Of a stretch of DNA of 64,000 nucleotides, positions 17,854 to 48,583 are shown piece after piece (within the stretch, counting starts at the first letter, position 1; the number at the start of each line of letters is the position of its first letter). This DNA is from an uncultured Bacteroidales bacterium. GTDB lineage: Bacteria > Bacteroidota > Bacteroidia > Bacteroidales > VadinHA17. The notes under the pieces are model-generated. The model was given only the letters and a program-made list of their open reading frames with translations, did no database searches and had not been told where the DNA came from. The stretch is from contig CAVTPX010000004.1 in the NCBI GenBank assembly GCA_963736735.1, forward strand, positions 51,941-115,940. The letters are read 5' to 3'. Position numbers and translations under genes: made by a program.

Positions 17854-18841
17854 TTACTTAACAACTTCAACTACAGCATATTTGGATATTTTCCAGAATT
17901 CTGCCGGATCTTTGATCTCAATGTAAGCAACCAGGTTTTCTGACTCCTGTACAATCGCGTATGATCCTGAGGGATGTTCTGTGATAAGCTTTGCATCTTT
18001 CGAATTTACGGGTATGGTTTTCATCTGTGTGATGTCCACCTGTGCAAACAGCGAATCAATGAAATCTTCAGTAAGGGTCTCCGTCCGTCCAAGTCCTAAG
18101 AAGCCTCCCTCTTTGGAGACAAGGCCCTTTTCCTTCAGGTCTTTGAAGGTTCCTGTGGCAAGCCATGCTGTGTTCATCTCACTTACCTGTTCCCCGATGG
18201 TCTCAGTCTGCTGAGCTACTGTTGTCTGCAGTTCGCTGGCGAGAACATTGAGGTTGCCAATCTCGAGATCTTTCTCGGTAAGTGTTGCCTTCATTGCAGT
18301 AATTTCATTCTCGCTCACAATAATCTTTAGCTTCAAGAGTTGCGATCATTTCCTTCAATCCCTTGATCTCTCTGCCTGAATTTCTCATCTGGGCATTCAG
18401 TGATGCAAGTTTTTTCCTGTTGTCCTCGAGTAAAGTATTTATGGCACTTATATCCTGCATGATCTGCTCTTTCCTTGCCTGAGTAAATTCCACACCTGAG
18501 GAGGAGTTGACAGTGATCAGATTTTCCTTTTCCTTAATTGTATTAAGACCTTTCTGAACCTGATCAAAAGTCTGCAGCCAGTCGTTGAGCGTTGAATCGC
18601 GAACCACAAGCTGATCTGTGAAAGCATTTCTCTCTGTCTCCATCAGTGTAACCTGGCTGACATATGCTTTTTTATAGTGCGAGTATGAGAATATTCCGGC
18701 AGTTATTACCACCAGCAGAATAATGATTGCGGCGGTGAATGCTCCTTTGTTCCGGCCTTCTTTCCTTGCTTTTTCAAGGTCAACGAACGGGGGTTTTTCT
18801 CCTCCTGTGTAGCTGCGGCCACTAATGTCTTCATTTTTCAT
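17854..18841 (-). CDS. Membrane-anchored coiled-coil protein; +1 frameshift near 18327
   Basis: N-terminal TM helix, long heptad region, C-terminal GTFKDLKEKGLV..GGFLGLG..KLITEHPSGSY..DPAEFWKISKY domain of a type seen in Bacteroidota. Confidence 0.75.
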
Positions 18842-23300: not shown

Positions 23301-23315
23301 GCCAATTGTGTGCCA
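23301..23315 (-). promoter_or_regulatory. Candidate sigma54 promoter (TGGCACACAATTGGC)
   Basis: GG-N10-GC, ~30 nt upstream of ATG 23272. Confidence 0.6.
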
Positions 23316-23512: not shown

Positions 23513-24229
23513 CTACATAAACTTCTCCCGGTTCTGAAGGTTGTACAGTGCAAAAAGGAGCGAGATGACAGTGCCAACACCAAGGAAAATGCGGTTTTTA
23601 ACTGTGATTATCGCCCATGTTGCATCGCTGACATCGCGGGCCGGTTCAAAGGGGTTGAGGAAAATGTTCCACTGGCTCCGCTGAAGGGGTTCCTGAAGTA
23701 TAAGGAAAAACATGCCAATGATTATCATCACTACTGCAGTTCCGTTTCCGTTGCGTATAACCGTGGAGAGCATAAATGCCGTCATGCCGAGAAACAATAC
23801 AGGCATCATTACCTGGACAGTCATCCGGAAGACCGGGAACTTTATTATCATCACCGATGAAATGAACGTGAATAAAAGCAGGATCAGGAAAGTGATCAGG
23901 AATATCAGAATTATCCTGACGAGCCATACCTTGTATCTGTAATCGGGTATCCCGAACAGAATCTCTATTGTCCTTGAATCCTGGTCATTCTGTATGCCGA
24001 AAACCGAAGGATAGAAGACCAGGAGCAGTCCCGAAAAGATGAATACACCGTAGAGTTCTTCCATCCTTGAAATATCTTCCGAGAATACATAGATAACTGA
24101 CAACCCCAGGTAGAACAGGGTCGACCCGGCAAGGAACCAGAAGAACCTGCTGGCGAAGATTATCTTGAGGTTATAAAAGATCATCTTCTGAATCAGGATA
24201 ATATAGTTATTTAATCTGCCCGGTTTCAT
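23513..24229 (-). CDS. ABC-2-type permease-like membrane protein
   Basis: About 6 TM helices; DQDSRTIEILFGIPDYRYKVWL resembles the ABC-2 coupling helix; last gene of the operon. Confidence 0.7.
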   Translation of the reverse strand: MKPGRLNNYIILIQKMIFYNLKIIFASRFFWFLAGSTLFYLGLSVIYVFSEDISRMEELYGVFIFSGLLLVFYPSVFGIQNDQDSRTIEILFGIPDYRYKVWLVRIILIFLITFLILLLFTFISSVMIIKFPVFRMTVQVMMPVLFLGMTAFMLSTVIRNGNGTAVVMIIIGMFFLILQEPLQRSQWNIFLNPFEPARDVSDATWAIITVKNRIFLGVGTVISLLFALYNLQNREKFM

Positions 24230-24241
24230 GCTGGTTGGTTA

Positions 24242-27200
24242 TTAATCGACGGGTGAATTTTTATCTTCCTTATTCCGCAGGATCCACAGGTAGGCGTCCT
24301 CAAGGTTGGGGGTGGCACGTATGGCACCTTCCCAGGGGCTCTTTTCAGAGACAACCCTCACCCTGACACTGTCGCCCTCTGACATATGGTGCACAACGAG
24401 GTTCCTGCTTACAAAATCGTTAAACTCCGCTGCCGGGATGTTGAATTGCCAGACGTGACCTTCAGCTTCGTGAGTCATGTCAATAGGTTTGCCGAGATAT
24501 TTCAGTTTTCCCTTGTTCAGCACGGCCACCTGGTTGCAGGAGCTGGAGATATCCTCGATTATGTGTGTCGAGAATATCACAATTCGTTCACGGCTGAACT
24601 CTACGAGGAGGTTCCTGAACCTTATCCTCTCCCTGGGGTCAAGGCCTGCGGTGGGCTCATCCACAACGAGTATCCGCGGCAGGTGCAGTAGTATCTGGGC
24701 GATGCCGATCCTCTGCTTCATCCCACCCGAATAGGAGCCTATCTTTTCGTGACGTCTCTCCTCCATGTGTACCGATTTGAGCACATATGTGACTCTCTCT
24801 TCCCGGGTTTTGGCATCGATAATATTCTTCAGCATCGCCTGGTAATGGAGGTACTCATGGGCAGTCATATTCTCATAGCTTCCGAACTCCTGGGGGAGGT
24901 ATCCTATCAGACCCTGCAGTTCCTCGCGTTTCACCTGTGTATCCATGCCGTTTATCCACACCTTCCCGTAGCTCTGCTCCAGGATGCCGCAGATTATCCG
25001 CATCAGGGTTGTCTTGCCGGCGCCATTGGGACCCAGGAGCCCGAACATGCCGTTGCCGATATCAAGTGATACACAGCTCAGCGCCTTGAAGGGTTTCTTC
25101 TTTTTCCCAATCAGAGGCACTGCAGCAACCACCCTGTATATATTTTTCCGCAGGCCCCTGAACCTGCCTTCAAGCCTGTAAATGTCAATGTTTTCCTCAG
25201 AAAGTTTCTGTCCTGTCTTATAGATGAATAACCCTGCAAACCAGAGTATTCCCATTATAAGCACCACAGCAATGTTCTCCCATCTGAGCTGAAAATAAAC
25301 GAGGTTGAGGAGCGGGATGATCCAGAAGACAGTCAGATCTGCTGCTTTGGATATCTTTTTAAGTATGGGTCTTCTGCCGTCTGCAGTCATGTTGGCAATA
25401 AGGGTCCTGACTGAATTCCATATAGCTGACAGGAAGAACCATGACATGATGCTGAAGAAGAAGATCCAGAATCCTTTTGTCAGGAAGAAATATGTAAACC
25501 AGCACAGAAAGCCGAACAAAGGTATCTGCCATGTAAGGTGTCCCATCTCCTTCCATGACCTGTACCCGTTGGCAAGGCCCAGTCTCTCACGGGTGCGGGC
25601 ACCGGCTTTCCACTCCCTCGCCCATCGTGATTCCCTGTCATAGATCTTCACGAGGCTCTGAACGCGGATCCGGATGTTCTCATCCGCCGGTATGACAGTC
25701 TCCCTGGCTTTTCTCAGGCTGTTCATCAGGAACCATGTTGCCGCCGGGATTACAATCAGCGTCAGGAGGCCGGTGATAAGCTGCCACAGGAACTTATCGA
25801 TATTTGTATATATAAGGAAAATTATGAGTGCGAAAATTACAAGCTGTGCGAGCCTGATCCTGATATCGAGCGATTTGAACCATCCGATTGCATTTTCAAG
25901 TCCGGAGTAAAATGTCGGAATAAAGATCAGTGTAAGAAGGGTGCTGAGAGTTAGTCCTCCGATGACTGTTACCGCGAATGATGCCCCGATTATTGAAACA
26001 TATTCAGCCTGACCCATTGCAAGCGGCAGCATTGCAATCACGGTTGTGACTGCAGTAATAAGTATGGGTCTTATCCTTGCCACCCCAGCAGCCATCAGGG
26101 CCCGTGACCGCCTGTTGCCCTGTTTCCGGAGCAGATTTGTATAATCTATGAGTATGATACCGTTGTTTACAACTATCCCGAGCAGAATCAGAAAGCCTGT
26201 GAGAGTACTGGCGTTGAGAAGTGAGTTGCCGGTGAGAATCAGCGCAGCGAGCGATCCGAGGGCAGCCAGCGGGATGCTGAAGAGCAGCACAAAGGGAATT
26301 ACAAAAGATTCGAAAACGGCTGCAAGGATCATATAAATCAGCAGGAAAGCAATTCCAATGAGTACATAGAACTCCTTCAGCTGGTTTTTCTCCTGTATCA
26401 CCTCGACGGCAATTCCCGGGGAAATATTCAGGCTCGCGACAATTGATTCAATCTCTTCCCTGGCTCCCAGAAGCAGGTCCTTTGAATTCTTTATTTCCTC
26501 ATTGAAGTTATACGTTATTGTAATCCTTTTTTCCTGGTTCTCGCGGTGGATATTCCCCAGTCCCTGTGAGAATATTATGCCGGCGAGTTCTTCCATCTCC
26601 ATCACTGCACCTGCATTATTTGTGACCTCAAGGTTCTTCAGATCGTCTATTGATTTATCAGTGACTGGTGCGGCAACGGTATCAGTGACTGCATATTTGA
26701 TTATGATGTCATAACTCTCCGTTCCCTGCCTGAAGGTTGCACCTGAAGAATATTCAGTCCCGAAGGTAGCCAGGGCTGCTGTAAGGTTTGCAAGTGTATA
26801 ATTATTCCTTCCGATATAGTCCATATCGAAGTGAAGCTGCACCTCGGGCTTATTGTCCTGTACGTTGATATTTGCACCGGTGATTGACTCGAGTTCTTCG
26901 AGATAGGTCCTTATATCGTCGGCAAGGTTTTTCATCTGGGTGAAGTTTTCACCCCTGATTACAACACTCTCACTTTCCGACCCGATGCCCAGCAGGTTCA
27001 TGAAGTCGGCGCCCGGATTCATTGTCCCGCCGGTGGAGCCGCCGCCGGTAAATCCCCCTGATGTCGAGATCTCATCCATTGAGACCTCGGCAGAGGTTAT
27101 ATTTTTTGTTTTATCAGCAATCGCAGTCTTAATCTCTGCCAGGCTTCTCTTGCTGGTTTTGTCCCATTCCTTGGCGAGGTTTACTGTTACAGTTGCTTTT

Positions 27201-28996
27201 TCCTCCTCAATGCGACTGATAATATCTTCTTTTTCTGAGATGGACGAAAGCCGCTCCTCAATATCGGCCACCACGGCATCAGTCTTTTCCAGAGTAGATC
27301 CGGAAGGCATAGTAACACTCAGCCTGAAGCTGGGCGTGTTTATCTCCTGGCTGTTGTTCATGCTGAGCGAAAGGCTTATCAGCAGGGCAGCGAAAAAGAC
27401 CACAAGTGTCCCGATTATAGTGGCTGCAGGCTTTCTCATACTGGCCTTAAGAACGAGATGGTATGCCTGTATCAGCCGGTCGTGTATCGACAGTTTTTTG
27501 AATATCTCCGCCCTCTGCCCCGGGTTGTGCGAGAGAAGAAAATATGTCGCCATGGGGATAAAGAGGATTGCTACTGAGAGCGACACGAGCAGTGTAGAAA
27601 CGATTGAGACGCCAATGTTTTTCCCTATTATTTTGATGAGAAAGTTGGCCGAAAAGATAAATGGAAAGAAGACGACGACTGTCGTCAGTGTCGAAGCAAG
27701 GATGGCTCTCCAGACCTCCTTTGTTCCTTGTTTTACAGCTGTCTCCGGGTCTTTCCCGGCGCCCGCAAGCCGGTAAATGTTCTCAAGCACCACCACCGAG
27801 TTGTCGACAAGCATACCTATGGCCAGTGCCACTCCGACGAGCGTGAGACTGTTTATTGATATATTATACCCGTAGAAGAAGTTGAATGCCGTATAGACAG
27901 AGATAGGAATGGAGACAGCAATAACTGTAACAAGGCGGATATTTCTCAGGAAGAACCAGAGGATAAGTACAGCCAGAATGGCGCCGGTGACCGCCAGGTT
28001 AATAATCTGGTCGATGTTCTTCTCCATCGTTTCGGCAGTGTTGTTCTGGACAACGATCTCCACACCCAGTGATGCAAGTTCACGGTTAAGCTTTGCCACC
28101 TGATCGGTAGCAGAGTGGGAGAGCTGAATAAGGTTTGCCTGGTTGTCATTGACAAGGTTCATTGTCACGGCGTCCATTCCGTTGACGCGGCTGTAAGAGC
28201 TCTCTTCCTTGACCCCGTAGAATATCTCAGCAATATCACGAAGAAGCACAGGTCCTTCCTGCTTCACTATTATATTGCCAATCTCAGTCACATCGGTATA
28301 TTCCGATGTTATATTGACAGATATCCGGCTGTCACCGTCAACGACCTTACCCGCAAAGGATCTTGCCCTGCTGTTGTTGTTGAGGAGCCCCCTGACCTGG
28401 CTCATTGTGACTCCCAGCGCCTTACACGCCTTTTCATTGAGCCTGACCTCGATTGAATTCTCCTGTCCTCCGTACACCTGCACACCCGCAATTCCGTCGA
28501 TATTCTCAAGCTTTGGCTTAATCTCACGGTCTGCAATATTCCTTATCCTGTCTACACCCCCCTCACCCCTGACCTGCAGTGACATGAACTGGTTTGTAAG
28601 CTGTTCGAGGTCGATCTTGATAACATTGATAATGAACTCTTCAGGAATTGATGCTTTAACAGAATTAATCCGCTCCTGCAGTTTCAGGCTTGCATATTTC
28701 AGGTCAGCCTTCTGGTTGTAATAGACCATGATGGTGCCGTAGCGGGAGGTGATATTCGACTCAATCTTCTCGATACCCTCAAGTGTGCCGATGGCGCCTT
28801 CGACAGGCATTATGGCCTGTGTCTCTATATAGGCGGGATCCATTTCAAGCGGCGATCCCACCTGCACTATAAGAGTCGGGAGCTGTGCATTCGGGATAAG
28901 CTCTACGGCCAGCTTTTTGTAAGATACATACCCGAGCATCGTCAGCCCGAGAAAAAGCATGCTTATGAGGACCTTTCGTTTTAAGATGAAGTTCAT
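24242..28996 (-). CDS. RND (AcrB-like) permease fused to extra TM helices and an ABC ATPase domain
   Basis: RND motifs GMLVDNSVVVLENIYR, GIVVNNGIIL, RIRPILIT; C-terminal GLLGPNGAGKTT, YSGGMKQR, VVDEPTAGLD, FSTH. Confidence 0.9.
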   Translation of the reverse strand: MNFILKRKVLISMLFLGLTMLGYVSYKKLAVELIPNAQLPTLIVQVGSPLEMDPAYIETQAIMPVEGAIGTLEGIEKIESNITSRYGTIMVYYNQKADLKYASLKLQERINSVKASIPEEFIINVIKIDLEQLTNQFMSLQVRGEGGVDRIRNIADREIKPKLENIDGIAGVQVYGGQENSIEVRLNEKACKALGVTMSQVRGLLNNNSRARSFAGKVVDGDSRISVNITSEYTDVTEIGNIIVKQEGPVLLRDIAEIFYGVKEESSYSRVNGMDAVTMNLVNDNQANLIQLSHSATDQVAKLNRELASLGVEIVVQNNTAETMEKNIDQIINLAVTGAILAVLILWFFLRNIRLVTVIAVSIPISVYTAFNFFYGYNISINSLTLVGVALAIGMLVDNSVVVLENIYRLAGAGKDPETAVKQGTKEVWRAILASTLTTVVVFFPFIFSANFLIKIIGKNIGVSIVSTLLVSLSVAILFIPMATYFLLSHNPGQRAEIFKKLSIHDRLIQAYHLVLKASMRKPAATIIGTLVVFFAALLISLSLSMNNSQEINTPSFRLSVTMPSGSTLEKTDAVVADIEERLSSISEKEDIISRIEEEKATVTVNLAKEWDKTSKRSLAEIKTAIADKTKNITSAEVSMDEISTSGGFTGGGSTGGTMNPGADFMNLLGIGSESESVVIRGENFTQMKNLADDIRTYLEELESITGANINVQDNKPEVQLHFDMDYIGRNNYTLANLTAALATFGTEYSSGATFRQGTESYDIIIKYAVTDTVAAPVTDKSIDDLKNLEVTNNAGAVMEMEELAGIIFSQGLGNIHRENQEKRITITYNFNEEIKNSKDLLLGAREEIESIVASLNISPGIAVEVIQEKNQLKEFYVLIGIAFLLIYMILAAVFESFVIPFVLLFSIPLAALGSLAALILTGNSLLNASTLTGFLILLGIVVNNGIILIDYTNLLRKQGNRRSRALMAAGVARIRPILITAVTTVIAMLPLAMGQAEYVSIIGASFAVTVIGGLTLSTLLTLIFIPTFYSGLENAIGWFKSLDIRIRLAQLVIFALIIFLIYTNIDKFLWQLITGLLTLIVIPAATWFLMNSLRKARETVIPADENIRIRVQSLVKIYDRESRWAREWKAGARTRERLGLANGYRSWKEMGHLTWQIPLFGFLCWFTYFFLTKGFWIFFFSIMSWFFLSAIWNSVRTLIANMTADGRRPILKKISKAADLTVFWIIPLLNLVYFQLRWENIAVVLIMGILWFAGLFIYKTGQKLSEENIDIYRLEGRFRGLRKNIYRVVAAVPLIGKKKKPFKALSCVSLDIGNGMFGLLGPNGAGKTTLMRIICGILEQSYGKVWINGMDTQVKREELQGLIGYLPQEFGSYENMTAHEYLHYQAMLKNIIDAKTREERVTYVLKSVHMEERRHEKIGSYSGGMKQRIGIAQILLHLPRILVVDEPTAGLDPRERIRFRNLLVEFSRERIVIFSTHIIEDISSSCNQVAVLNKGKLKYLGKPIDMTHEAEGHVWQFNIPAAEFNDFVSRNLVVHHMSEGDSVRVRVVSEKSPWEGAIRATPNLEDAYLWILRNKEDKNSPVD

Positions 28997-31900
28997 AGCT
29001 CTTCTCCCAGAGATGATTGAGTACCGGTTTTCACCCTGTTCTTCCCGGTGATGAATGTGCTGAACGAGTCAGTCACCCAATATACGCATGGTATTACTAC
29101 AAGCGTCAGCAGGGTGGAAGTGACGAGTCCGCCTATCACGGCCATCGCCATCGGTGACCTGAGGGAAGCACTATCCCCAAGCCCGATTGTGAGAGGTAGC
29201 AATGCCAGAATGGTGGTAAGACTGGTCATCAGGATAGGTCTAATACGCTGGCTTCCGGCCATAATGATTGCATCCTTTTTGGGCAGGCCGTCCTTCCTCA
29301 GTTGGTTTATCCTGTCGATGAAAAGTATTGCATTATTCACCGCTATCCCCCCGAGCATTATTATCCCGATGTAAGCCATCATGTTAAGCGATTTACCGAA
29401 GAGGAAGAATGTAAGCACCGTCCCCACCCCGGCAAGAGGGATTGTAAGCATTATAATAAATGGCTGCAACAGTGATTCGAACTGAGCTGCCAGCACCATA
29501 AACACAAGCACAAGCGAAAGAAGCAGTGCAAATGAGAGGTTTGACATCGATTCTTTCCGTTTCAGTTCCTCACCAGTGAATTCAATCTTGTAATCTGTGG
29601 GAAGGGTGAGCGGTGCGAGTGACGCCTGCGCCTCCTTAATAACCTTATCGAGGGGCATGTCAGGTGTTACACTGGCATAGAGGTAGCAGGTACGCGACTG
29701 GTTCCTCCTTGTCACTTCACGGGGGCTCACCACCCTCTTTACCTGTGCCAGGTCGCTCAGCGGTACCTTGACGGACCCGGCTGTAATTATGAGATCATTG
29801 AGCTGGCCGATAGAAATATCCTCAAGCTTTATTGTAATGTCTTTCAGCTCGCCGTCCTTTTCAAAGCTGCCGGCATCGGCTCCCTCAAGGTAACCCTTCA
29901 CCTGGTTTATGATGCTTTCTACAGTCACATTATAATAGCTTGTCCTGAACCGGTCAATTACTATTTCTACCTCCGGTGTTCCCTCATCAAGCGAGGTGGT
30001 GACATTGAAGAGCCCTCTGTTTTGTTCAAGCAGTGCTCTTGATTCATTCAGAATCCGTTCGAGCTCACCGTAGTCTTCACCTGATATCTCGAGTGAGAAT
30101 GCTGCCTCTGCGGTTCCAAGGGCAGACTGCAGTGCTGTCTCCTCCCTTGTGAAAGCCACTTCCATTCCCTGGATGTTTTTCAGGTATTCACCAATCTGCG
30201 CAATTGCCTGTTCGGTCTCTGCGGCAAATTCCTTATCGAGGATGATCCTCAGCGAAGCGCTGTTCTCACCTCTGACGGAGGTACTCTGCCCCAACGACGA
30301 AGTGTTGTCTTCGCCAGCCTGCAAGTATATCATTATAACCTTTTCACCAAGTAATTCCCTTATAATTGCCTCAGTGCGTGTGGCTGTGCTGAAAGTCCTT
30401 TCAAGGCTTGTCCCTTCTGGAAGCTTGATTGTCAGTGTAAATTCTGCAGAAGAAGACTTAGGCATAAATTCACTGCCCAGGCGGGGAATGAGCAGGGCTG
30501 ATCCGGCAAGCAGAACAACAGAAAGAATAATAACAAGTACCCTCCTGTCGATTATCCTTTCAAGTAGGCGGGGATACCATTTGAAAGTTATCGGTGAGCT
30601 GATGACAGCCTTCTTTCTCTTTTCTGAGAAAAATGTCGAAACGAGCATCGGGATGACAAGCATTGCCACAACCAGTGATGATATGAGTGAAAATGCAACT
30701 GTCCAGGCCTGGTCTTTGAACATTTCGCCTGATGCTCCGTGGAGATAGACTATTGGAAGGAAGACGACGATTGTGGTTATTGTTGATGCGGTAATGGCGC
30801 CGCCAACCTGGCCGGTGCCTGTAATAACGGCATCACTGAGAGTCATTCCTTCGTCACGTAACCGTGTAATGTTTTCGAGTACAACAATTGCATTGTCAAC
30901 CAGCATACCTGCACCGAGGGCCAGTCCTCCCAGTGTCATTATATTAAGGGTGAGATGGTTGAAATACATCAGGTTGAAAGTGGCGATTATAGAGACAGGT
31001 ATTGCCACGCTGATTACAAGTGTGGTCCCTATTCGTCTCAGAAAAATATAGAGTACGAAGACGGCAAGGAGGATTCCCAGGATCAGGGTATTCTTTACCT
31101 CACCGATGGCGCTGTCAATATAGGAGCCCTGGTCGGTAACCCTGATAAATTCGTAGCCGGGCAGAGCCTTTTCGAGGCCTGTTATGGCTTCGTTGAGGCT
31201 TTTGACTGCATCAACTGTATTGAACTTGGGTTCCTTGTAAATTGAAATCCCGATGCATCTTTCACCATTGACTGTGACAATGTTTTCCGGATCCTTATTT
31301 GCAAACCTGATAGTGGCCACGTCCTTCAGACTGACAGGTACCCTTGATGACGTTGTTGTTGATGATGACGATGCCTGTGAAGCTGCGGAGGCTGAATTGG
31401 CCGTTGCAGAGGACTGTTTGTACCCGACAATAATATTTTCGAGATCACTGATGTCTTCAAGGACACTTACTCCCTTAACCACGTACCGGGTTCCCATATC
31501 AACTATCGATCCTCCCGACACATTCCTGTTATAATTGCTGATGACGGCCGCAATTCCGTCTGAGGTGAGCCCGAAGGACTCAAGGAGGTATTTACTGGTC
31601 TCAATGACAACCTCACTCTCTTCGATTCCGGTGAGGCGGATATCAGCCACCCCTTCGATCCTTACAAGTTCATTGCGGATATAGTTATCAGCCACTTTCC
31701 TCAGCTCCTCCATGTTGGAGATGCGCTCATTCTTCAGACCGACAACCATTACAGGCGAGGCATTCGGGTCGTACTGCGAGATTGTAAAATCATCAAGGTC
31801 AGAGTTCTGGCTGAAAGAGTTAAGCTCTTTCTGAAGATCGAGGAATGCCTCGTCCATGTCCTTGTTCCAGTTATACTCGACTGTAATGACTGCAGAGCCT

Positions 31901-32160
31901 GTCCGGGAAACGGAAGAGACCTGTACGACATCGCTCTGTCGCATCGCAAGCGACTCTATCTGATCTACATAATTGTTTTCAATATCCTCAGGCGGTTTTT
32001 CTCCAGCCTTAAGTTCGATATAGATCTTCGGATTGTTCAGGTCAGGGAACAGGTCGGTTCCAAGCTTGCCGAACGAAATGAAGCCCAGGAGTACAATTCC
32101 CAGGACGATCATTGTGACCGTGACGGGATATCTGACGGCAAAACGGGCAATAGGGTTCAT
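28993..32160 (-). CDS. RND (AcrB/HAE1-like) efflux permease
   Basis: GMLVDNAIVVLENI, GIAVNNAILFID, RIRPILMTSLTT; 1055 aa. Confidence 0.95.
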   Translation of the reverse strand: MNPIARFAVRYPVTVTMIVLGIVLLGFISFGKLGTDLFPDLNNPKIYIELKAGEKPPEDIENNYVDQIESLAMRQSDVVQVSSVSRTGSAVITVEYNWNKDMDEAFLDLQKELNSFSQNSDLDDFTISQYDPNASPVMVVGLKNERISNMEELRKVADNYIRNELVRIEGVADIRLTGIEESEVVIETSKYLLESFGLTSDGIAAVISNYNRNVSGGSIVDMGTRYVVKGVSVLEDISDLENIIVGYKQSSATANSASAASQASSSSTTTSSRVPVSLKDVATIRFANKDPENIVTVNGERCIGISIYKEPKFNTVDAVKSLNEAITGLEKALPGYEFIRVTDQGSYIDSAIGEVKNTLILGILLAVFVLYIFLRRIGTTLVISVAIPVSIIATFNLMYFNHLTLNIMTLGGLALGAGMLVDNAIVVLENITRLRDEGMTLSDAVITGTGQVGGAITASTITTIVVFLPIVYLHGASGEMFKDQAWTVAFSLISSLVVAMLVIPMLVSTFFSEKRKKAVISSPITFKWYPRLLERIIDRRVLVIILSVVLLAGSALLIPRLGSEFMPKSSSAEFTLTIKLPEGTSLERTFSTATRTEAIIRELLGEKVIMIYLQAGEDNTSSLGQSTSVRGENSASLRIILDKEFAAETEQAIAQIGEYLKNIQGMEVAFTREETALQSALGTAEAAFSLEISGEDYGELERILNESRALLEQNRGLFNVTTSLDEGTPEVEIVIDRFRTSYYNVTVESIINQVKGYLEGADAGSFEKDGELKDITIKLEDISIGQLNDLIITAGSVKVPLSDLAQVKRVVSPREVTRRNQSRTCYLYASVTPDMPLDKVIKEAQASLAPLTLPTDYKIEFTGEELKRKESMSNLSFALLLSLVLVFMVLAAQFESLLQPFIIMLTIPLAGVGTVLTFFLFGKSLNMMAYIGIIMLGGIAVNNAILFIDRINQLRKDGLPKKDAIIMAGSQRIRPILMTSLTTILALLPLTIGLGDSASLRSPMAMAVIGGLVTSTLLTLVVIPCVYWVTDSFSTFITGKNRVKTGTQSSLGEEL

Positions 32161-32165
32161 GTCAG

Positions 32166-33218
32166 CTATTTGATGATTTTCACCTTCGACTTGTTGCTGA
32201 GGGTTTCAAACCCGCTTGTGACAACACGTTCATCTTTCATAAGCCCGCGTGTTACTTCTGCCTCTGTCAGGTTTTCGATGCCTGTCTGGATGATCCTTTC
32301 TGCTGCCAGACCTCTCTCGATGACGAAAACTGTCTTGCCCCTCTGCCTTGAGAGGATTATGTTCTTGGGTATCACTATCACCGAGTCTTTTCGGTTTGTG
32401 ACAATGTCAGCCTTCACGAACATTCCCGGGCGAAGAAGGTAGTCAGGGTTGTCTATTGACACAGTACCGGTGAAAGTCCTGGTATCTGCATTTATTGCCG
32501 GTGACAACTGTGCTATATGCCCTATGATTGTATCATCGGGTATTGTATAGTTTGTGAGACGGGCCTCCTGTCCGGCTTTAATTACATTTATATATTTTTC
32601 CGGAAGCTGAACATCCATAAACATTGTACGGTAGTCCATGATCTTCACTATCGTAACCCCTGTCTCCACCTGGGTTCCCTGGGTATAATAGGGCAGTTCA
32701 ACGATTACGCCGTCAATGGGTGCGGTTATTCTTGTTTTCCCGAGCTGAAGCTTTGCATTCACTACAGTTGTCTTTGCATTTTCATAGTTGATGCCTGCTG
32801 TCTTCAGTTCCTTCAGGGTAACACCACCTTTCTCATAGAGCGACTCCTGTTTTCTGAGTTCCGTCTCCATAAGCTCCATGTTAAGCTGATTGGTCTCCAG
32901 CTTGACAGAATTGACATACTCCTCATCTTCAAGGCGTGCGATGAGTGCTCCTGCCTTAACCTTGTCTCCAAGCTGCCACAGCCGCCCTGTCTGAGGGTTC
33001 GTGCCCAGGTAGTAGGCTGCACCGATCTTTGACTTCATGACTATTTCACCCTTGGGAAAAGCTGTTCCGGTGGTATTAATGAATTCTTCGACTGATCTCA
33101 GTTTCAGATCTTCAACAGATACTGGTATTTCAACATCGGCGGTGAGGGCCTGGTCCTGATTTTTGCATCCGGTTACCAGTGCCAGCGCAACGGCCAGGAA
33201 AATTATATTCTTTTTCAT
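32166..33218 (-). CDS. RND periplasmic adaptor (membrane fusion) lipoprotein
   Basis: Lipobox LVTG-C; ITAPIDGVI; LRPGMFV. Confidence 0.92.
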   Translation of the reverse strand: MKKNIIFLAVALALVTGCKNQDQALTADVEIPVSVEDLKLRSVEEFINTTGTAFPKGEIVMKSKIGAAYYLGTNPQTGRLWQLGDKVKAGALIARLEDEEYVNSVKLETNQLNMELMETELRKQESLYEKGGVTLKELKTAGINYENAKTTVVNAKLQLGKTRITAPIDGVIVELPYYTQGTQVETGVTIVKIMDYRTMFMDVQLPEKYINVIKAGQEARLTNYTIPDDTIIGHIAQLSPAINADTRTFTGTVSIDNPDYLLRPGMFVKADIVTNRKDSVIVIPKNIILSRQRGKTVFVIERGLAAERIIQTGIENLTEAEVTRGLMKDERVVTSGFETLSNKSKVKIIK

Positions 33219-33236
33219 TTTGAAGGTTTTTTCTGT

Positions 33237-34719
33237 TTATCTGTTCTCTTTGACAGGTGCAATTGAAACATTATTCTCGAAATCATAGAGAGTCTGGATC
33301 TTCAGGTTCAGGAGTTCCAGTTTATATGAGATGAGGGAATTTGTATAAGAGAGCTGTTTCTCTGAAAGCTGGTTCTGGTAAATGTTCAGATCCATTCCCG
33401 TGAGGTCACCGTTCTTGTATTTTTCAAGGTTCAGTTCATAAGTCAGCTGTGCATTGGTCACATTCTGTCGTGCTATCTCTATCTGGTTGCGGAGGTTCAG
33501 GAGGCTTCTGTATACCTTCCTTATTGTCAGAATAATATCATTCTTTTCCTCATCAAGGGAGATCTTTGCAGTTTCTATGCCGGCTTCGGAAGCCTTTATC
33601 CTTGATTTTCTTTCTCCCCAGTCCCACAACGGAATTGAGAGCGAGAGAGAGACATCCTCGTTATCCACAGGGCTGGCATACACATTATCGAACCTTTCGT
33701 TATCACCGAAGAGGCCTACTGAAAGACCCAGACTTCCCTTGAACTCATTCATCGATTTTGTTTCAATCAGGTCAAACTGCGATGTCTCGATGCTGATCTC
33801 CCTCTGACGCAGTTCCATCCTGTTGGCAAGACCCTGGTTTGTAGCGAAGGCTACATCAATTGGGATTGTATCGACAGCAATATTTGGCAGCACTATGATA
33901 TCGTCATAAAGGCTCATCCCGATAAGGAGCTTGAAATCGTCCTTTGCATTTTCGAGATCCACCTGTTTGTTCTCGTAGTCTGACCTTGTGGTGGCAAGGT
34001 TCAGTTCTGCCTGGAACATCTCTTCGCGTGCAGAGATGCCGGCTTCGACCTTGTTTTTCGATACTTCATAGCTCTTCTGCATATTCTGGTATGCCTGCCG
34101 CGAGATGTCGAGACCCTGCTGCTTCTGATAGACAAAATAGAAGGCCGTTGCCACCTGCTTCTCGAGAGCAAGGAGCTGAATTGCATAGTTAAGCTCGGCG
34201 TTTTCAAGTGCCAGGGTGAGCTCTTTCAGCATCAGCTTCGTGCGGTTATATGTGAACAGCGGCTGATCGAGATTCAGCGACAGATTATTACTGAACCCCT
34301 TGTTCGTATTATTTGTATACTCACTGTATGAGTCTTTATACCCGAATCTGTTGACAAGGGAGATTACTGCATCAGTCTGGACGATAGGTTGAGACACTGT
34401 GAAGAGTCCGAAACTCTGTGTTGTTCGGGTCGAGTTCCATTCTGAAATCAGGTCGTTGAATGACCTGTTATGACTGTAACCTATCGGGTTGATTGAAAGA
34501 GCGAGGCTAGTCTTACGTGCAGCATGCTGGGCATTCAGGTTCTCCTGGCTGCGCACAAGGTTCAGCCGTGGTCTTCTTAATCGACGGAGAATTGTTTTCG
34601 GCAATTTCCATGGCTGTCTCGAGGACCAGTCCCTGCTGGGCTTTCCCCGTCAGCGATAAAAAGAGCAACAGGCAAGCCGTTAAAATCAATGCTCTGGTAC
34701 CTTTGTCTGAATGTTTCAT
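33237..34719 (-). CDS. TolC family outer-membrane channel; +1 frameshift near 34570
   Basis: Signal peptide then LETAMEIAENNSP in 34513-34719; LDQPLF, LSIPLWDWG and coiled coils in 33237-34604. Confidence 0.88.
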
Positions 34720-34747
34720 CTGTATATAATTCTTTGATTCTCTGTTC

Positions 34748-37700
34748 TTAATTTACTTTCACCCATCTGATGGCGTCTCCAATTATTACTCTTCCGGTTG
34801 ACTGGTTTGTCAGTTCCACTCTGGCGCTGTCAGAAGAGAGATAGTATCTGCCGAGGTTGTTCCATCCGGGATCGACGCTCGTAAAGTCGACTGTTATCTC
34901 ATCCACGCCCTCGTCATGATACACCTTGTAATGCATATCCTTGTATACTGGCTCCGGTGGCTGTCCTTCGCCGGGTATTCCGGGTCCCTCCCCGGCGCGC
35001 TGACCACCCTCACCTCCGGGTGCCCCCGGTCTTTGTCCCATCCGGCCCGTCATTCCTCCGGCCTTCCCGATATAGCAGAAAATGTCATAGTAACCCGGGT
35101 CCTCAATTTTGACTGACCACTTCACAGTCTTGTCGCCGGTACCGGTACGGGTGCTCACTGCAGACCGGATATAATCGCCGTAGTATGCAGAGAAGACTAC
35201 CGGCTGCCAGTATTCGGGTGCGTACCTCTGGTTGCCCTGGCGGTATTCGCTGCCTCTGCGGTTTGTGATACCAAGCAACCTCTTCAGAGGGCTGTCAGTC
35301 TGGTTAAGTCCCGGATCAAACCCGGGGTCTTCGTTATCCACAATAAGTTCACCGGGTTCGGTTGTCTGTGGCATTGATGGCAGAATCTCATCTTCTTCGG
35401 TTACGGTACCCCTGAACTTCAGTTTTCGTATTTCACCCATGGGAAGGGTGATCTCGCCGGGGATATTCTTTGCAAACAGGGTGTTTATCAGCATAGCCCT
35501 GGGCTGTGCATCAAGGATTATGGATATCTTTTTTGCCTGTGCCGGGCCTATGCTGACAATCCTGGTTATATCAGCCGACTCCATCCCGCGTCCCTGCATT
35601 GAGATGCCTGCAATGCCTGCGGGCCGTCCCTGGAACGAGCCTCCCGGCTGTCCACCGCGGCCGCCGCCTCCACCCCCCGGCCCGCCTGTCCGGAATGAAA
35701 CATTGAAAATGCCCGGTACAGGCTCGGGATTAGCCGCTGTAAAAGTCACGAGGTACCTTACACGGTCACCCGCAACAATCTCCTCCGCCTGCAACCCGCT
35801 GAGCAGAAAACCGGGCTGCTCACGGCTGTTGAACCAGTCGTCGAGGAATGGATAAAATGCGAAGCCGAACCTCTCCTTTATGTCGTTGTCAAGCTTTGAA
35901 ACATCAACTCTCCTGAACCTGTTGTCATCAATGTACTTTTTGAACCAGGCGTTGAAATCTTCAATACCCGCCTGTGAGCGTATCAGGTTGAACAGATGGT
36001 CTCCCTTAAGTGTAAGAACGGCCGGAAGCGTGTCACCGCCGGGATTTAAAGCCAGCAGATCCCTGAAGCTGTAATTACGGAGTATTATATTCGCATTGTC
36101 ATTGTCCGACAATTCGTCCTGAGGTGCCCACATTGCCGGACCGGGACGGTTGACCTTCTGAAGGTGAGATTCGAAGACAGCATTGATAACAGGGTATTCA
36201 GCCGAATAGAAATTATTTTTAAAGAAATAGAAACTCGGAGCCAGTCTGTACCGGACAGGCTCATTCAGAACCCTGCCGTTGACATATCTGACATTTTCAC
36301 CGCTTATAAAGGCATTCCTGACAAAGTCATTGAAGAGTCTTATCTGCAGTTCTTTGTCTGTAATGACCTGGCTATTCTTCTCCATCCTCTTCTTCTGCCG
36401 TGAAAAGCGTTTCCCGAATCCTGCATTTTCAAGCGTCAGCAATTTCTCAGGCATCAGCACCATCGAAGGCTGAAGTTCTGCCCTCGTCTGGGTACTCATC
36501 CTGGGATAGGAGTAAAACTGTACGGGCACCTCCACAAAACTCAGCGTTTTGAAGGGGTATCTTGTAGAAAAGGTAGCCTCCAGCTCTCTCATGATGCCTG
36601 ACACCAGGAAGGGGAGTGTGTCCCTGAGTTCAGCAAGGTCCTTCTTATAATAATCGTGGCCCGGGAAATACCAGCTTACATATTTTACAGAGTCGACAGT
36701 GAGGGTGTCTGACCTGTAATCGCCGATGGCCAGAGTAAGTCCGGTCAGGGGTGACTCAGGAGTGAAGACCTGGCGGCCGCCATCACCGGCTCCGGCTTCA
36801 CGGGAGCCTGACCCCTGTGCCACTGCCCGCAGACCTCCTGCTGTCCTGACACGCAGGGTGAAGTTTGTAAAATCGACATTTATCCGCGCCGGGTTCGAGG
36901 GGTAGTAGTTGAGCGATGGCACCGGGTACCAGTGCGTTTCAGGGATGAGCAGTACAAAGTTTTCAGTCAGAAATGACTGACGCTTGCTGATGTTTAGCAT
37001 CGCCACCCTGTACGGTGATTCTTCCGGATTGTCAGTATGATCAGGATAACAAAACGATTCAGCAATGGATCCGGCATACGAAATACTGACGCTGTCCGAT
37101 CCGCCGGGAGCCAGAGGCACCTGAAGATCAATCTCTATAATATGGTTTACCCTCCTGAAATTCTGTGATACCCCACCGAAAGTAACTTCGCTGACAGTTA
37201 AATAAGGATTAAGGGAAAAGAGCAGGGTGTCAAGGCTCTTCACGTTATCATTCCTGAAGACAAGAGTCGCTTTTGCTGCTATTTCTTTGCCCTTGTGTTC
37301 CAGGTCGATGCGCGCATCTGTCAGGCTTGCAAAGTCGCTGCTCTCGTACTTTCTGTTCGTTTCGATCACAAGTGCCTTTTCATCGATGCCATTTTTGTAG
37401 AACGAATATGTATTGAACCCGCAGAAAGCTGCTCCTGCAAGAAACAGTACCAGCAATACCCAGGTAAGTGCGGTATGTGGTTTCGATTGCGGCAGGCGCT
37501 TGAATAACAGGACTGTTGCAAGTACAAGGGAGATCCCGAGGAAAAGGTACAGAAGCCTCTGGTTCAGTATATGGCTGAGATTACCGAACCCTGCCACCGA
37601 TGACTTGAAGAGCGGGAGCCCGAATGCCATATAATCGAACATCGACCCAAGACGGTACCAGCCCCAGAACATATTTAATGCCGCCAATCCGAGCAGAACC

Positions 37701-38239
37701 AGAAATGTAATCGCCTGGTTTCTTATAAGTGACATCAGCATGAATGCCAGACCCAGACTGAACATAAGGGTTGGAACACTTATTAAAAGGATATACCAGA
37801 GATAGGAGAGAAGGTCTACAGACATGTACTCTGATATGATATTAATTACCAGTGCTATCCCCAGAACAATAAGGTTGAGCCCCAGGAAAAGCCTGATGAT
37901 GCCCCAGGTTTTGCCGGTCACATACTCGAAGTTGGAGATGGACCTTGTGTAAAGGACCTCGTTGGTGTCAACTTTTTTATCACGCTTGAGGAAGTCAGAT
38001 GCAAGAAAAATAATTACAAGCGACTGTGCGATATTCAGCAGGTAGAGGTTTACAAGCGGCACTGTCGACGGTGTGGAGATAAATTCCCAGGATTCATCTC
38101 CCACAGGGGAGAACAAACCCATGTTCATAAAGGAGAAAATGAATAATGCGCCTAAGGAGAATAGCCTGAAAAACCAGCTTCTTCTTAGCGTTTTCGCCTC
38201 ATTTTTTGCGACTGTCCTTATCTTATGCAGGAATGCCAT
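34748..38239 (-). CDS. ABC-2-type permease fused to an M1-aminopeptidase-like extracytoplasmic region and a C-terminal golvesin/xanthan-lyase-CBD-like domain
   Basis: About 7 N-terminal TM helices with RDKKVDTNEVLYTRSISNFEYVTGK; ISYAG...WYP...YPFKTLSFVEVP M1-like segments; C-terminal GWNNLGRY...VIIGDAIRWVK. Confidence 0.72.
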   Translation of the reverse strand: MAFLHKIRTVAKNEAKTLRRSWFFRLFSLGALFIFSFMNMGLFSPVGDESWEFISTPSTVPLVNLYLLNIAQSLVIIFLASDFLKRDKKVDTNEVLYTRSISNFEYVTGKTWGIIRLFLGLNLIVLGIALVINIISEYMSVDLLSYLWYILLISVPTLMFSLGLAFMLMSLIRNQAITFLVLLGLAALNMFWGWYRLGSMFDYMAFGLPLFKSSVAGFGNLSHILNQRLLYLFLGISLVLATVLLFKRLPQSKPHTALTWVLLVLFLAGAAFCGFNTYSFYKNGIDEKALVIETNRKYESSDFASLTDARIDLEHKGKEIAAKATLVFRNDNVKSLDTLLFSLNPYLTVSEVTFGGVSQNFRRVNHIIEIDLQVPLAPGGSDSVSISYAGSIAESFCYPDHTDNPEESPYRVAMLNISKRQSFLTENFVLLIPETHWYPVPSLNYYPSNPARINVDFTNFTLRVRTAGGLRAVAQGSGSREAGAGDGGRQVFTPESPLTGLTLAIGDYRSDTLTVDSVKYVSWYFPGHDYYKKDLAELRDTLPFLVSGIMRELEATFSTRYPFKTLSFVEVPVQFYSYPRMSTQTRAELQPSMVLMPEKLLTLENAGFGKRFSRQKKRMEKNSQVITDKELQIRLFNDFVRNAFISGENVRYVNGRVLNEPVRYRLAPSFYFFKNNFYSAEYPVINAVFESHLQKVNRPGPAMWAPQDELSDNDNANIILRNYSFRDLLALNPGGDTLPAVLTLKGDHLFNLIRSQAGIEDFNAWFKKYIDDNRFRRVDVSKLDNDIKERFGFAFYPFLDDWFNSREQPGFLLSGLQAEEIVAGDRVRYLVTFTAANPEPVPGIFNVSFRTGGPGGGGGGRGGQPGGSFQGRPAGIAGISMQGRGMESADITRIVSIGPAQAKKISIILDAQPRAMLINTLFAKNIPGEITLPMGEIRKLKFRGTVTEEDEILPSMPQTTEPGELIVDNEDPGFDPGLNQTDSPLKRLLGITNRRGSEYRQGNQRYAPEYWQPVVFSAYYGDYIRSAVSTRTGTGDKTVKWSVKIEDPGYYDIFCYIGKAGGMTGRMGQRPGAPGGEGGQRAGEGPGIPGEGQPPEPVYKDMHYKVYHDEGVDEITVDFTSVDPGWNNLGRYYLSSDSARVELTNQSTGRVIIGDAIRWVKVN

Positions 38240-38251
38240 GGAAACCTGTGG

Positions 38252-39145
38252 TTATTCAATTATATCAGTGTGTAGCTTATGTTCCATGAAGTAAACATAT
38301 GCATGCTCAATATTCGGCGTGACCGCCTCAGCGCTGTATTCAGGCGGATCGTCCGATACAACCTGTACTTCCCATCCGGATTCCACAGGAATCGTGGAAA
38401 TGACATTGTATTTTTCCTTTACCCTGTCATATTCGCTCTGCGAGAGGGTAAGCCTGAATACGTGCCCTTCAGCGTGTTTAATAAGGCTTTCCGGCTGCCC
38501 TGCGAATACAAGTTCACCCCTGTTCAGGAGTGCCATACCCTGGCAGGTCGATGAAATGTCACCTACAATATGTGTTGAGAGTATTATTGTGACATCATTG
38601 CGGCTGAGCTGAGAGAGGATATTCCTGAATCTTATTCTCTCATCAGGATCGAGTCCGGTGGTCGGTTCATCAACAACTATGATCCGTGGGTTGCCGATCA
38701 GAGCCTGTGCAATTCCAAGACGCCGTTTCATGCCTCCTGACAACTTGTTAGCCTGTCTGTCACGTACCTCCAGCAGTCCCACCTGGTCAAGCAGACGATT
38801 GACTTCATTAAGTCTTTCGCTCTTGTTCTTAATTCCGGCGAGAGCCCCCGAGTAATCAAGGAATTCCCAGGTCTTCAGTGATGTGAAGAATCGAAAATCC
38901 TGCGGCAGGTAACCAAGGATGCTCCGAAGGTCCTTCCGGTGTTCCTGGATGTCACGGCCGTCGACAAGAACCACACCTGAGGTTGGTTTCATGAGGGTAA
39001 CCATAATCCTCATCAGGCTTGACTTGCCAGCTCCGTTTGGACCAAGTAATCCAAACATCCCCGTGCCGAATTCAAGGTTAATCTCTTTTAAAGCATGGTT
39101 ACCATTGGGGTAGATCATGTTCAGTCCCCTGATCTCAATTTTCAT
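38252..39145 (-). CDS. ABC transporter ATP-binding protein
   Basis: GLLGPNGAGKSS, LSGGMKRR, VVDEPTTGLD, LSTH. Confidence 0.95.
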   Translation of the reverse strand: MKIEIRGLNMIYPNGNHALKEINLEFGTGMFGLLGPNGAGKSSLMRIMVTLMKPTSGVVLVDGRDIQEHRKDLRSILGYLPQDFRFFTSLKTWEFLDYSGALAGIKNKSERLNEVNRLLDQVGLLEVRDRQANKLSGGMKRRLGIAQALIGNPRIIVVDEPTTGLDPDERIRFRNILSQLSRNDVTIILSTHIVGDISSTCQGMALLNRGELVFAGQPESLIKHAEGHVFRLTLSQSEYDRVKEKYNVISTIPVESGWEVQVVSDDPPEYSAEAVTPNIEHAYVYFMEHKLHTDIIE

Positions 39146-39361
39146 GTTGCACGGTTTGCGGTATCGCGGAATCAGTTATTAGACCACATAAAGACGGATA
39201 ATATTTCAAATGTAGCATGGATTGCAGACATTTATTTAACTTTTTTTCGAATTAAACTGATTCTCAGTATCAGGTGCCCTTGATTTTTGATTTTAATATA
39301 TCTTTATTGACCCTTTAGAGTGACAATTGATTCCAGAACTTAAAATAATATCAGATTTATT

Positions 39362-48491: not shown

Positions 48492-48583
48492 AAAAGCTGA
48501 CTAATTTTTCAATGAGGATGATAAAAGTATAAAGAATAATGAGAAAAGCTGTAATTTAGATATTGAGTACGCAATCGAATATC

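What the first reader, a model, noticed from the sequence alone, without database searches (positions are those of the whole stretch)
23513..39145. Operon for a hybrid RND-ABC trans-envelope machine
Seen: seven tightly spaced same-strand genes (gaps of -4 to about 30 nt). In order: ABC ATPase, ABC-2 permease fused to a large M1-like/golvesin-like ectodomain, TolC, one membrane fusion protein, RND permease, RND-ABC ATPase fusion, ABC-2 permease. Established: tripartite pumps normally use either a proton-driven RND (AcrAB-TolC, MdtABC) or an ABC (MacAB, type I secretion), not both. Inference: two RND subunits, two related ATPase domains, two ABC-2 membrane domains, one adaptor and one TolC fit a single complex with a heterodimeric ABC covalently tied to a heteromeric RND. 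The peptidase-like partners point to a peptide or protein substrate. I know of no characterised example, but uncharacterised homologous clusters may exist in other Bacteroidales.
Basis: partly seen in the sequence, partly recalled or inferred. Interest (0 to 1): 0.82.

Follow-up and report, generated by a model that had tools for sequence, protein, structure and literature searches.

The report
Conserved RND–ABC fused efflux gene cassette
A seven-gene operon, conserved in many environmental Bacteroidota, joins a proton-type RND efflux pump subunit to an ATP-driven ABC engine in one protein; no such pump has been studied.

Summary
Seven minus-strand genes (23513-39145, gaps -4 to 28 nt) encode, in order: an ABC ATPase; a 7-TM ABC-2-like permease with an M1-aminopeptidase-fold ectodomain lacking the zinc motifs, plus Golvesin_C; TolC; a lipoprotein adaptor; an RND permease; a 1584-aa RND::ABC fusion; and a small 6-TM permease.

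The fusion is not an artefact. The 120 best database clusters all carry ACR_tran and ABC_tran. All 14 full-length representatives that contain the linker place it at about residue 1021-1295. All seven genes lie in the same order in 4 of 4 complete distant loci. In 5 further genomes, including cultured Prolixibacteraceae, the ectodomain-permease gene keeps the window's spacing from the fusion.

The join is six extra TM helices, four of them inserted between strand beta1 and the rest of the NBD. The cassette is rare: 4 of 400 sampled phylum genomes.

New points: the TolC gene carries a 1-nt frameshift in this assembly that three relatives' contigs lack. The non-canonical TM4/TM10 residues of both RNDs also occur in an unfused RND. 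The neighbouring M14 peptidases are not conserved.

A single physically coupled machine is plausible but unproven; the only complex test gave weak support. Seven literature searches found no description.

The parts
38252..39145 (-). Free ABC ATPase (297 aa), with Walker A GPNGAGKS, signature SGGMKRR, Walker B IIVVDEPT and H-loop STH. It is the closest paralogue of the fused NBD.
   Evidence: GldA/DrrA-like, below equivalog cut-offs; 42% identity over 273 aa
37349..38239 (-). Membrane domain of the 1163-aa protein (residues 1 to about 297): seven predicted TM helices, ABC-2/NosY-like.
   Evidence: helices; hydrophobic segments; ABC2_membrane_2 weak in 2 of 5 orthologues; JGI name NosY-type permease on some homologues
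35687..37342 (-). Periplasmic M1-aminopeptidase-fold domain (residues about 300-851) without zinc-binding or exopeptidase motifs.
   Evidence: IRAP/ERAP1/PepN E about 1e-14; tricorn F3 E 0.004; Peptidase_M1 weak in 5 of 5; HExxH/GxMEN in 0 of 50
34760..34939 (-). Golvesin_C domain (residues 1101-1160), preceded by Gly-rich low-confidence linkers.
   Evidence: (5 of 5 orthologues, best E 3.6e-18)
33237..34719 (-). TolC-family outer-membrane factor. The signal-peptide exon-like piece starts at ATG 34719. A 1-nt frameshift at 34569/34570 separates it from the 455-aa body.
   Evidence: contigs of three runs lack one base there; orthologues intact at about 500-535 aa
32166..33218 (-). Periplasmic adaptor (membrane fusion protein), a lipoprotein (LVTGC).
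   Evidence: TIGR01730 188 bits, over cut-off
28993..32160 (-). Unfused RND permease (1055 aa). TM4 reads VDN and TM10 reads VNN.
   Evidence: (best solved relative MdtB, E 2e-87)
25904..28996 (-). RND domain of the fusion protein (residues 1-1031). TM4 reads VDN and TM10 reads VNN.
   Evidence: (28% identical to the unfused RND)
25715..25864 (-). Extra TM hairpin TM13-TM14 (fusion residues 1045-1094).
   Evidence: helices 16-36 and 40-65 of the 555-aa module, pLDDT 85-91; conserved W, P and F columns
25640..25669 (-). Detached first strand of the NBD (IRIRVQSLVKIY), whose Y is the A-loop-type aromatic residue.
   Evidence: strand 81-90; V87, K88 and Y90 invariant in 61 sequences; pattern matches the start of the free ATPase. 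The A-loop assignment is inference.
25196..25540 (-). Four-TM insertion (TM15-18, fusion residues 1153-1267) between NBD strand 1 and strand 2.
   Evidence: the positive-inside loop RRPILKKISK is read from the sequence
24245..25090 (-). NBD core plus C-terminal beta domain (residues 1303-1584): Walker A GPNGAGKT, SGGMKQR, ILVVDEPT, STH.
   Evidence: TM_1403, NosF, ABCA and LptB folds
23513..24229 (-). Small 6-TM permease (238 aa), always directly downstream of the fusion gene.
   Evidence: (56 of 56 loci); weak-support complex with the fused module

Best explanation
The cassette encodes one composite envelope exporter.

Shown:
- A two-RND pump of the MdtBC kind, with one adaptor and one TolC.
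- One RND subunit continues, through six additional TM helices, into a catalytically complete ABC-2-type nucleotide-binding domain.
- A second, closely related free ATPase and two ABC-2-like membrane proteins are always encoded with it.

Inferred:
- The fused NBD pairs with the free ATPase, and the two permeases form the membrane dimer. A heterodimeric ABC module therefore sits tethered beside the RND trimer.
- A 2:1 trimer (two unfused subunits, one fused) would give exactly one fused NBD per pump. That would reconcile three-fold RND symmetry with two-fold ABC symmetry.
- The ATP-driven module extracts or flips a substrate at the inner membrane, or works its periplasmic M1-like pseudo-peptidase domain mechanically as NosFY works NosD. 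It then hands the substrate to the proton-driven RND/adaptor/TolC duct for expulsion.
- The substrate is unknown. A peptide-like or amphipathic molecule is a guess.
For: - Fusion real: one open frame of 1584 aa. The 120 of 120 best clusters carry PF00873 and PF00005 at 76-100% identity over residues 1030-1584.
- Fusion obligatory: of 100 representatives matching the 271-aa linker, all 14 of full length (1550-1585 aa) have it at about 1021-1295.
- Structured join: the AF2 model has pLDDT 83 and pTM 0.69, with two plus four TM helices and a detached beta1 strand. Many W, P and F columns are invariant in 61 sequences.
- Both NBDs keep every catalytic motif. They are reciprocal best paralogues in the genome: 230 bits against 141-145 for the next hit.
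- Cassette order is identical in 4 of 4 complete distant loci at 30-62% identity. The ectodomain-permease gene lies 8.8-9.9 kb upstream on the same strand in 5 of 5 further genomes. The small permease is directly downstream in 56 of 56 loci.
- Complex test of the fused module with the small permease gave weak support. Score 0.58, best of 3 controls 0.00. The mark was reached by 58 of 80 solved complexes and 2 of 110 mismatched pairs. At 0.60 or under it was reached by only 7 of those 80 and by both mismatches that passed. Runs agree in at least 82% of contacts and partner pLDDT is at least 74.
- The NBD fold is nearest to ABC-2-type ATPases: TM_1403, NosF and ABCA.
Against: - No test of RND-RND, NBD-NBD or permease-permease contacts was possible, because of size limits and one complex job. 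The one test run is 'more often wrong than right unless likely beforehand' by the tool's own calibration.
- Stoichiometry is pure inference.
- Only one adaptor is encoded, of the RND type, so nothing shows that the ABC module reaches the duct.
- The ABC-2 assignment of both membrane proteins is weak at sequence level.
- One representative (526 aa) begins with Met at the linker. It could be an unfused form or a split gene.
- The TolC gene is broken in this assembly.
- No expression or phenotype data exist.
Confidence: 0.48

Rival explanations
1. Two working units that are only co-expressed and co-localised. An ordinary proton-driven two-RND tripartite pump is one unit. A separate ABC-2 transporter or mechanotransducer, which serves the periplasmic M1-like domain, is the other. 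The covalent link fixes location or stoichiometry but passes neither substrate nor energy.
For: - ATPase-permease gene pairs sit at the two ends of the cassette in the usual ABC-2 order.
- ABC-2 permeases with M1-like ectodomains exist in clusters from other phyla with no RND named (Atlas rows at 0.87, leads only).
- The adaptor is of the plain RND type.
Against: - The linker-bearing NBD is fused in all 14 full-length representatives.
- The join is a conserved six-helix membrane structure rather than a loose tether.
- All seven genes keep their order across distant lineages in 4 of 4 complete loci.
Confidence: 0.27
2. ATP-gated or ATP-driven RND. The NBD pair, anchored by TM13-18 and the small permease, regulates or powers the conformational cycle of RND subunits whose proton relay is altered.
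For: - Both cassette RNDs have Asn where MdtB has the second TM4 Asp and the TM10 Lys.
- This holds in every fused-family sequence in which the motif was found. TM4: 33 DN and 1 DS among the 34 of 86 that the pattern matched, plus 9 of 9 read by eye. TM10: N in 78 of 78 matched of 86.
- The other RNDs of the same genome read DD (4 genes) and K (3 genes) wherever the motif pattern matched.
Against: - The same DN/NN signature occurs in an unfused RND of a genome without the linker (G283, loci L107/L109). It therefore marks an RND subfamily, not the fusion.
- The first TM4 Asp and the TM11 Arg are kept.
- No precedent is known to me (recalled).
Confidence: 0.13
3. The fusion is an assembly or annotation artefact or a decaying pseudogene.
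For: This assembly does contain frameshifts: TolC, an S46 peptidase split at 14587/14651, and split RND genes elsewhere.
Against: The same uninterrupted 1550-1622-aa frame is found in many independent assemblies from several sources and lineages. The NBD shows very strong conservation.
Confidence: 0.01

Closest known systems
MdtABC-TolC (E. coli), a two-RND heterotrimeric pump
   Same: Two tandem RND genes sit behind one adaptor gene and use a TolC-family duct. MdtB is the best solved relative of the unfused RND (E 2.2e-87). The heterotrimer MdtBC is noted in the review PMC8277102 (passage seen).
   Different: Here one RND carries six extra TM helices and an ABC NBD, and TolC is encoded in the operon. 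TM4 and TM10 read DN/N instead of DD/K. The heteromer is not shown here.
YbhGFSR (E. coli), an ABC-2-type efflux system with two different permeases and an adaptor-like YbhG
   Same: Two NBDs and two distinct ABC-2 membrane subunits (abstract of PMC13739795 seen in the listing). That YbhG is an adaptor is recalled.
   Different: YbhF fuses the two NBDs to each other, not to an RND. It has no RND partner and no M1-like ectodomain.
NosDFY, an ABC-2 ATPase and permease that works a periplasmic partner
   Same: NosF is among the nearest folds of the fused NBD. JGI names some homologues of the 1163-aa protein after the NosY-type permease. A mechanical role for a periplasmic domain is the analogy (recalled).
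   Different: It has no RND, adaptor or TolC, and a different periplasmic fold.
MacAB-TolC, an ABC-driven tripartite pump
   Same: An ATPase-driven module with a periplasmic domain in an adaptor/TolC context.
   Different: No FtsX/MacB-type domain was found. Here the duct partner by family is an RND.
'ABC transporter permease/M1 family aminopeptidase' proteins (database name only)
   Same: An ABC-2 membrane domain followed by an M1-fold ectodomain (Atlas rows at 0.87; fold).
   Different: The family here lacks the catalytic motifs, adds Golvesin_C, and is locked into the RND cassette.

Membership tests
RND HAE-1-type tripartite efflux pump | Full-length 12-TM ACR_tran permease | tested here: met
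   Both RNDs cover profile positions 1-1019 and 3-1018 of 1021.
RND HAE-1-type tripartite efflux pump | Adjacent adaptor (MFP) and outer-membrane factor genes | tested here: met
   TIGR01730 is over its cut-off, and OEP has E 4e-40. The OMF is frameshifted in this assembly only.
RND HAE-1-type tripartite efflux pump | Canonical proton relay: TM4 Asp-Asp, TM10 Lys, TM11 Arg | tested here: not met
   TM4 reads Asp-Asn, TM10 reads Asn and TM11 Arg is kept, aligned to MdtB. The same variant is seen in an unfused RND.
RND HAE-1-type tripartite efflux pump | Trimeric (or 2:1 heterotrimeric) assembly | not testable with these tools
   The proteins exceed the size limits of the fold and complex tools.
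ABC-2 (type V) ABC transporter | NBD with Walker A, Q-loop, signature, Walker B Glu and H-loop | tested here: met
   Both NBDs have them. They are invariant in 61 fused-family sequences.
ABC-2 (type V) ABC transporter | NBD fold of the ABC-2/ABCA class with a C-terminal domain | tested here: met
   Foldseek hits are TM_1403, NosF, ABCA7, ABCA4 and ABCA1 at E 1e-14 to 3e-17.
ABC-2 (type V) ABC transporter | Six-TM ABC-2 membrane domain | tested here: inconclusive
   There are six hydrophobic segments. Pfam ABC2_membrane models hit only 4-6 of 60 orthologues of the small permease and 2 of 5 of the large one. An Atlas cluster name is the other support.
ABC-2 (type V) ABC transporter | NBD-membrane domain contact | tested here: inconclusive
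   Weak support only: score 0.58, best control 0.00, with the calibration counts given in the For line.
M1 zinc aminopeptidase | M1 fold (N-terminal beta domain plus thermolysin-like domain) | tested here: met
   Foldseek E 7e-15, probability 1.0, to IRAP, ERAP1, PepN and two-domain M1. The model pLDDT is 68.7.
M1 zinc aminopeptidase | HExxH-E zinc site and GxMEN exopeptidase motif | tested here: not met
   0 of 50 family members have either motif.
MacB/FtsX (type VII) ABC transporter | FtsX-type 4-TM domain with MacB periplasmic core | tested here: not met
   No such Pfam hit was found in any of the seven proteins.

The most novel reading that the evidence does not exclude
A dual-energy export machine. 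One polypeptide couples an ATP-driven ABC-2 half-transporter to a proton-driven RND trimer. A 2:1 RND heterotrimer supplies exactly one tethered NBD, which dimerises with the free ATPase. This would give a cytoplasm- or inner-leaflet-to-outside relay within a single complex, a route that known tripartite pumps achieve only through separate cooperating transporters.
Probability: 0.3. Interest if true: 0.9.

Novelty: new variant of a known kind. Interest (0 to 1): 0.72.

Why it matters
Tripartite pumps are taught as using either an RND, an ABC or an MFS engine. A conserved covalent RND-ABC fusion with its own dedicated partners would add a fourth, hybrid design.

It also raises two concrete questions: how three-fold and two-fold machines are joined, and whether ATP and proton energy are used in series on one substrate.

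The cassette occurs in cultured, non-pathogenic Prolixibacteraceae. Genetics, biochemistry and cryo-EM are therefore feasible. The four-TM insertion splitting an NBD after its first strand is itself an unusual piece of ABC architecture.

Tried and rejected
- Sigma-54 promoter upstream of the operon. No match to TGGCAC-N5-TTGC lay in 39146-39361. Window-wide matches (55) were not above shuffles (mean 60). The consensus was recalled.
- Cassette as a clean insertion between conserved flanks. In a same-genus genome the flanking M14 and histidine-kinase orthologues lie about 148 kb apart, so no simple empty site was found.
- Conserved neighbours as functional clues. The window's REC/kinase/NtrC genes and M14 genes have no counterparts beside the four other loci. 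Peptidases of other families and Sortilin/BNR proteins recur nearby but not consistently.
- Proton-relay loss as evidence for ATP drive. Rejected as diagnostic, because an unfused RND shares it.
- Literature. Terms 'RND-ABC', 'ABC-RND', 'AcrB-ABC' and 'RND ABC fusion' gave 0 papers. 'ACR_tran' with 'ABC_tran' gave 3 unrelated papers. 'ABC transporter permease' with 'M1 family aminopeptidase' gave 0. Broader searches and passages of PMC8277102 and PMC3924187 mention no such fusion. Only the first 300,000 characters of PMC8277102 are held. Supplements were not consulted.
- A full multiple alignment of 86 long sequences timed out and was replaced by motif patterns.
- RNA evidence.
Full report
**Observation.** Seven ORFs lie head to tail on the minus strand between 23513 and 39145. 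The gaps are 12, 28, 18, 5, -4 and 12 nt once the TolC start is placed at ATG 34719. Pfam and NCBIfam identify, in order:
- an ABC ATPase (297 aa);
- a 1163-aa membrane protein whose only hit above threshold is Golvesin_C at 1101-1160;
- a TolC-family OEP protein;
- an RND-type adaptor lipoprotein;
- a 1055-aa ACR_tran permease;
- a 1584-aa protein with ACR_tran at 2-1031 and ABC_tran at 1310-1450;
- a 238-aa multi-TM protein with no hit.

**Anatomy of the fusion.**
- After RND TM12, an AlphaFold2 model built on 61 homologues (pLDDT 83, pTM 0.69) shows a TM hairpin at fusion residues 1045-1094.
- A beta strand (IRIRVQSLVKIY, 1110-1119) follows. It resembles the first strand of the free ATPase and ends in an invariant Tyr.
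- Next come an amphipathic helix, four more TM helices (1153-1267) and the rest of the NBD with a C-terminal beta domain.
- The NBD is thus split after strand 1 by a four-helix membrane insertion. The positively charged loop between the second and third inserted helices fits a cytoplasmic location (read from the sequence).
- All catalytic motifs are present and invariant.
- The nearest folds are ABC-2-class ATPases: TM_1403, NosF, ABCA proteins and LptB.
- The free ATPase is 42% identical to the fused NBD over 273 residues. The two are reciprocal best paralogues in the genome.

**Is the fusion real and conserved?**
- The best 120 protein clusters matching residues 1030-1584 all carry PF00873 and PF00005. 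Most are 1567-1591 aa. NCBI names them only 'efflux RND transporter permease subunit'.
- A search of 1.84 billion representatives with the 271-aa linker alone found 100 hits. All 14 of full length carry the linker at about 1021-1295.
- The rest are fragments, apart from one 526-aa protein that begins with Met at the linker. High-GC versions are also fused.
- Among species-representative genomes the linker is rare: 2 of 24 same-genus genomes, 0 of 16 other families of the order, and 4 of 400 in a phylum sample.
- A pattern scan of 185,579 genomes returned at least 594 relatives of the NBD module. The best 80 all cover linker plus NBD.
- Their hosts are Bacteroidales MAGs, Prolixibacteraceae including cultured Prolixibacter, Mariniphaga, Draconibacterium, Maribellus and Gaoshiqia, and single KSB1 and Calditrichota MAGs.

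**The cassette is the conserved unit.**
- In 4 of 4 loci with enough sequence (three at only 30-62% identity) all seven genes occur in the same order. A fifth locus is cut by a contig end.
- In 5 of 5 further genomes the orthologue of the 1163-aa protein lies 8.8-9.9 kb upstream of the linker on the same strand, as in the window.
- The small permease follows the fusion gene in 56 of 56 loci.
- By contrast, the window's downstream REC-like, hybrid kinase and sigma-54 activator genes, and the two divergent M14 carboxypeptidase-like genes, have no counterparts beside the other loci.

**The partners.**
- The 1163-aa protein has seven predicted TM helices and then a large ectodomain.
- Sequence evidence for M1 is weak. 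Peptidase_M1 is below threshold in 5 of 5 orthologues, and a profile hit to tricorn factor F3 has E 0.004.
- The AF2 model (pLDDT 68.7) nonetheless matches M1 aminopeptidases first and throughout the top list (E about 1e-14).
- None of 50 family members has HExxH or GxMEN, so it is an M1-like pseudo-peptidase.
- The ABC-2 nature of both membrane domains rests on weak Pfam hits, six or seven hydrophobic segments and database cluster names.

**The RNDs.**
- Both align best to MdtB/MdtC-type pumps.
- Against MdtB, the second TM4 Asp and the TM10 Lys are both Asn.
- This holds wherever the motif was found in the fused family. Other RNDs of the same genome read DD and K wherever the motif pattern matched.
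- An unfused RND in a genome without the linker has the same DN/NN pattern. The pattern therefore marks a subfamily and cannot be read as loss of proton coupling.

**Complex test.** The fused C-terminal module with the small permease gave weak support:
- Score 0.58, best of 3 controls 0.00.
- The mark was reached by 58 of 80 solved complexes and 2 of 110 mismatches.
- At 0.60 or under it was reached by only 7 of those 80 and by both passing mismatches.
- Runs agree in at least 82% of contacts, and partner pLDDT is at least 74.

It does not settle the question.

**TolC.**
- In this assembly the gene is split by one extra base at 34569/34570. A signal-peptide piece lies in one frame and the body in another.
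- Contigs of three freshwater-metagenome runs, 95-99% alike, each lack one base exactly there. Orthologues are intact.
- Other genes of this genome are also split. An assembly error is therefore as likely as a real mutation.

**Interpretation.**
- What is shown is a conserved, obligatory fusion inside a fixed seven-gene set.
- What is inferred is that the two NBDs and two permeases form one heterodimeric ABC-2 module tethered to a two-RND trimer. A 2:1 RND ratio would give one fused NBD per pump. ATP-driven work at the inner membrane or on the M1-like domain would then feed the RND/adaptor/TolC duct.
- The main rival is co-localised but mechanistically separate units. A bolder rival is ATP control of the RND itself.
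- Seven literature searches and two papers read in passages gave no description of such a system.
- I rate it a new variant of known kinds, of high interest to efflux specialists and testable in cultured carriers.

Noticed in passing
window 34569-34570: A single extra base splits the TolC gene. Contigs of three public runs from relatives lack it.
   Followed up: yes
window 13637-15784: An S46 (DPP7/11-like) peptidase is split into two same-strand ORFs covering profile positions 1-356 and 383-697. This is another frameshift or stop in this assembly.
   Followed up: partly
G000 C7:353621-356618 and C9:238561-242327: Other RND genes of the same genome are broken into several frames. This suggests indel errors or pseudogenes genome-wide.
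   Followed up: no
window 23301-23315 (minus strand): A sequence one mismatch from the sigma-54 -24/-12 consensus lies in front of the REC-like/hybrid kinase/NtrC-type genes. Such matches are not above chance in the window.
   Followed up: partly
L096, L097, L098, L094, L095 (G016, G018, G079, G283): RND homologues lie in open frames of 1451-1468 aa in genomes without this cassette. They may be other extended RND architectures.
   Followed up: no
L113:225-3278, L115:2423-5683, L116:9944-11257: Sortilin-Vps10/BNR-repeat proteins lie within a few kb of the cassette in three of four distant loci, but none is near it in the window.
   Followed up: partly
protein P0161 (526 aa): A representative begins with Met at the first extra TM helix and runs through the NBD. 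It may be a naturally unfused form or a split gene.
   Followed up: no
L005:3056-7924: In a same-genus relative the fusion frame runs about 44 residues further (1622 aa) and overlaps the small permease gene.
   Followed up: no
window 18305-18841 and 17854-18336; 48563-51133: ORFs of 178, 160 and 856 aa have no Pfam family.
   Followed up: no
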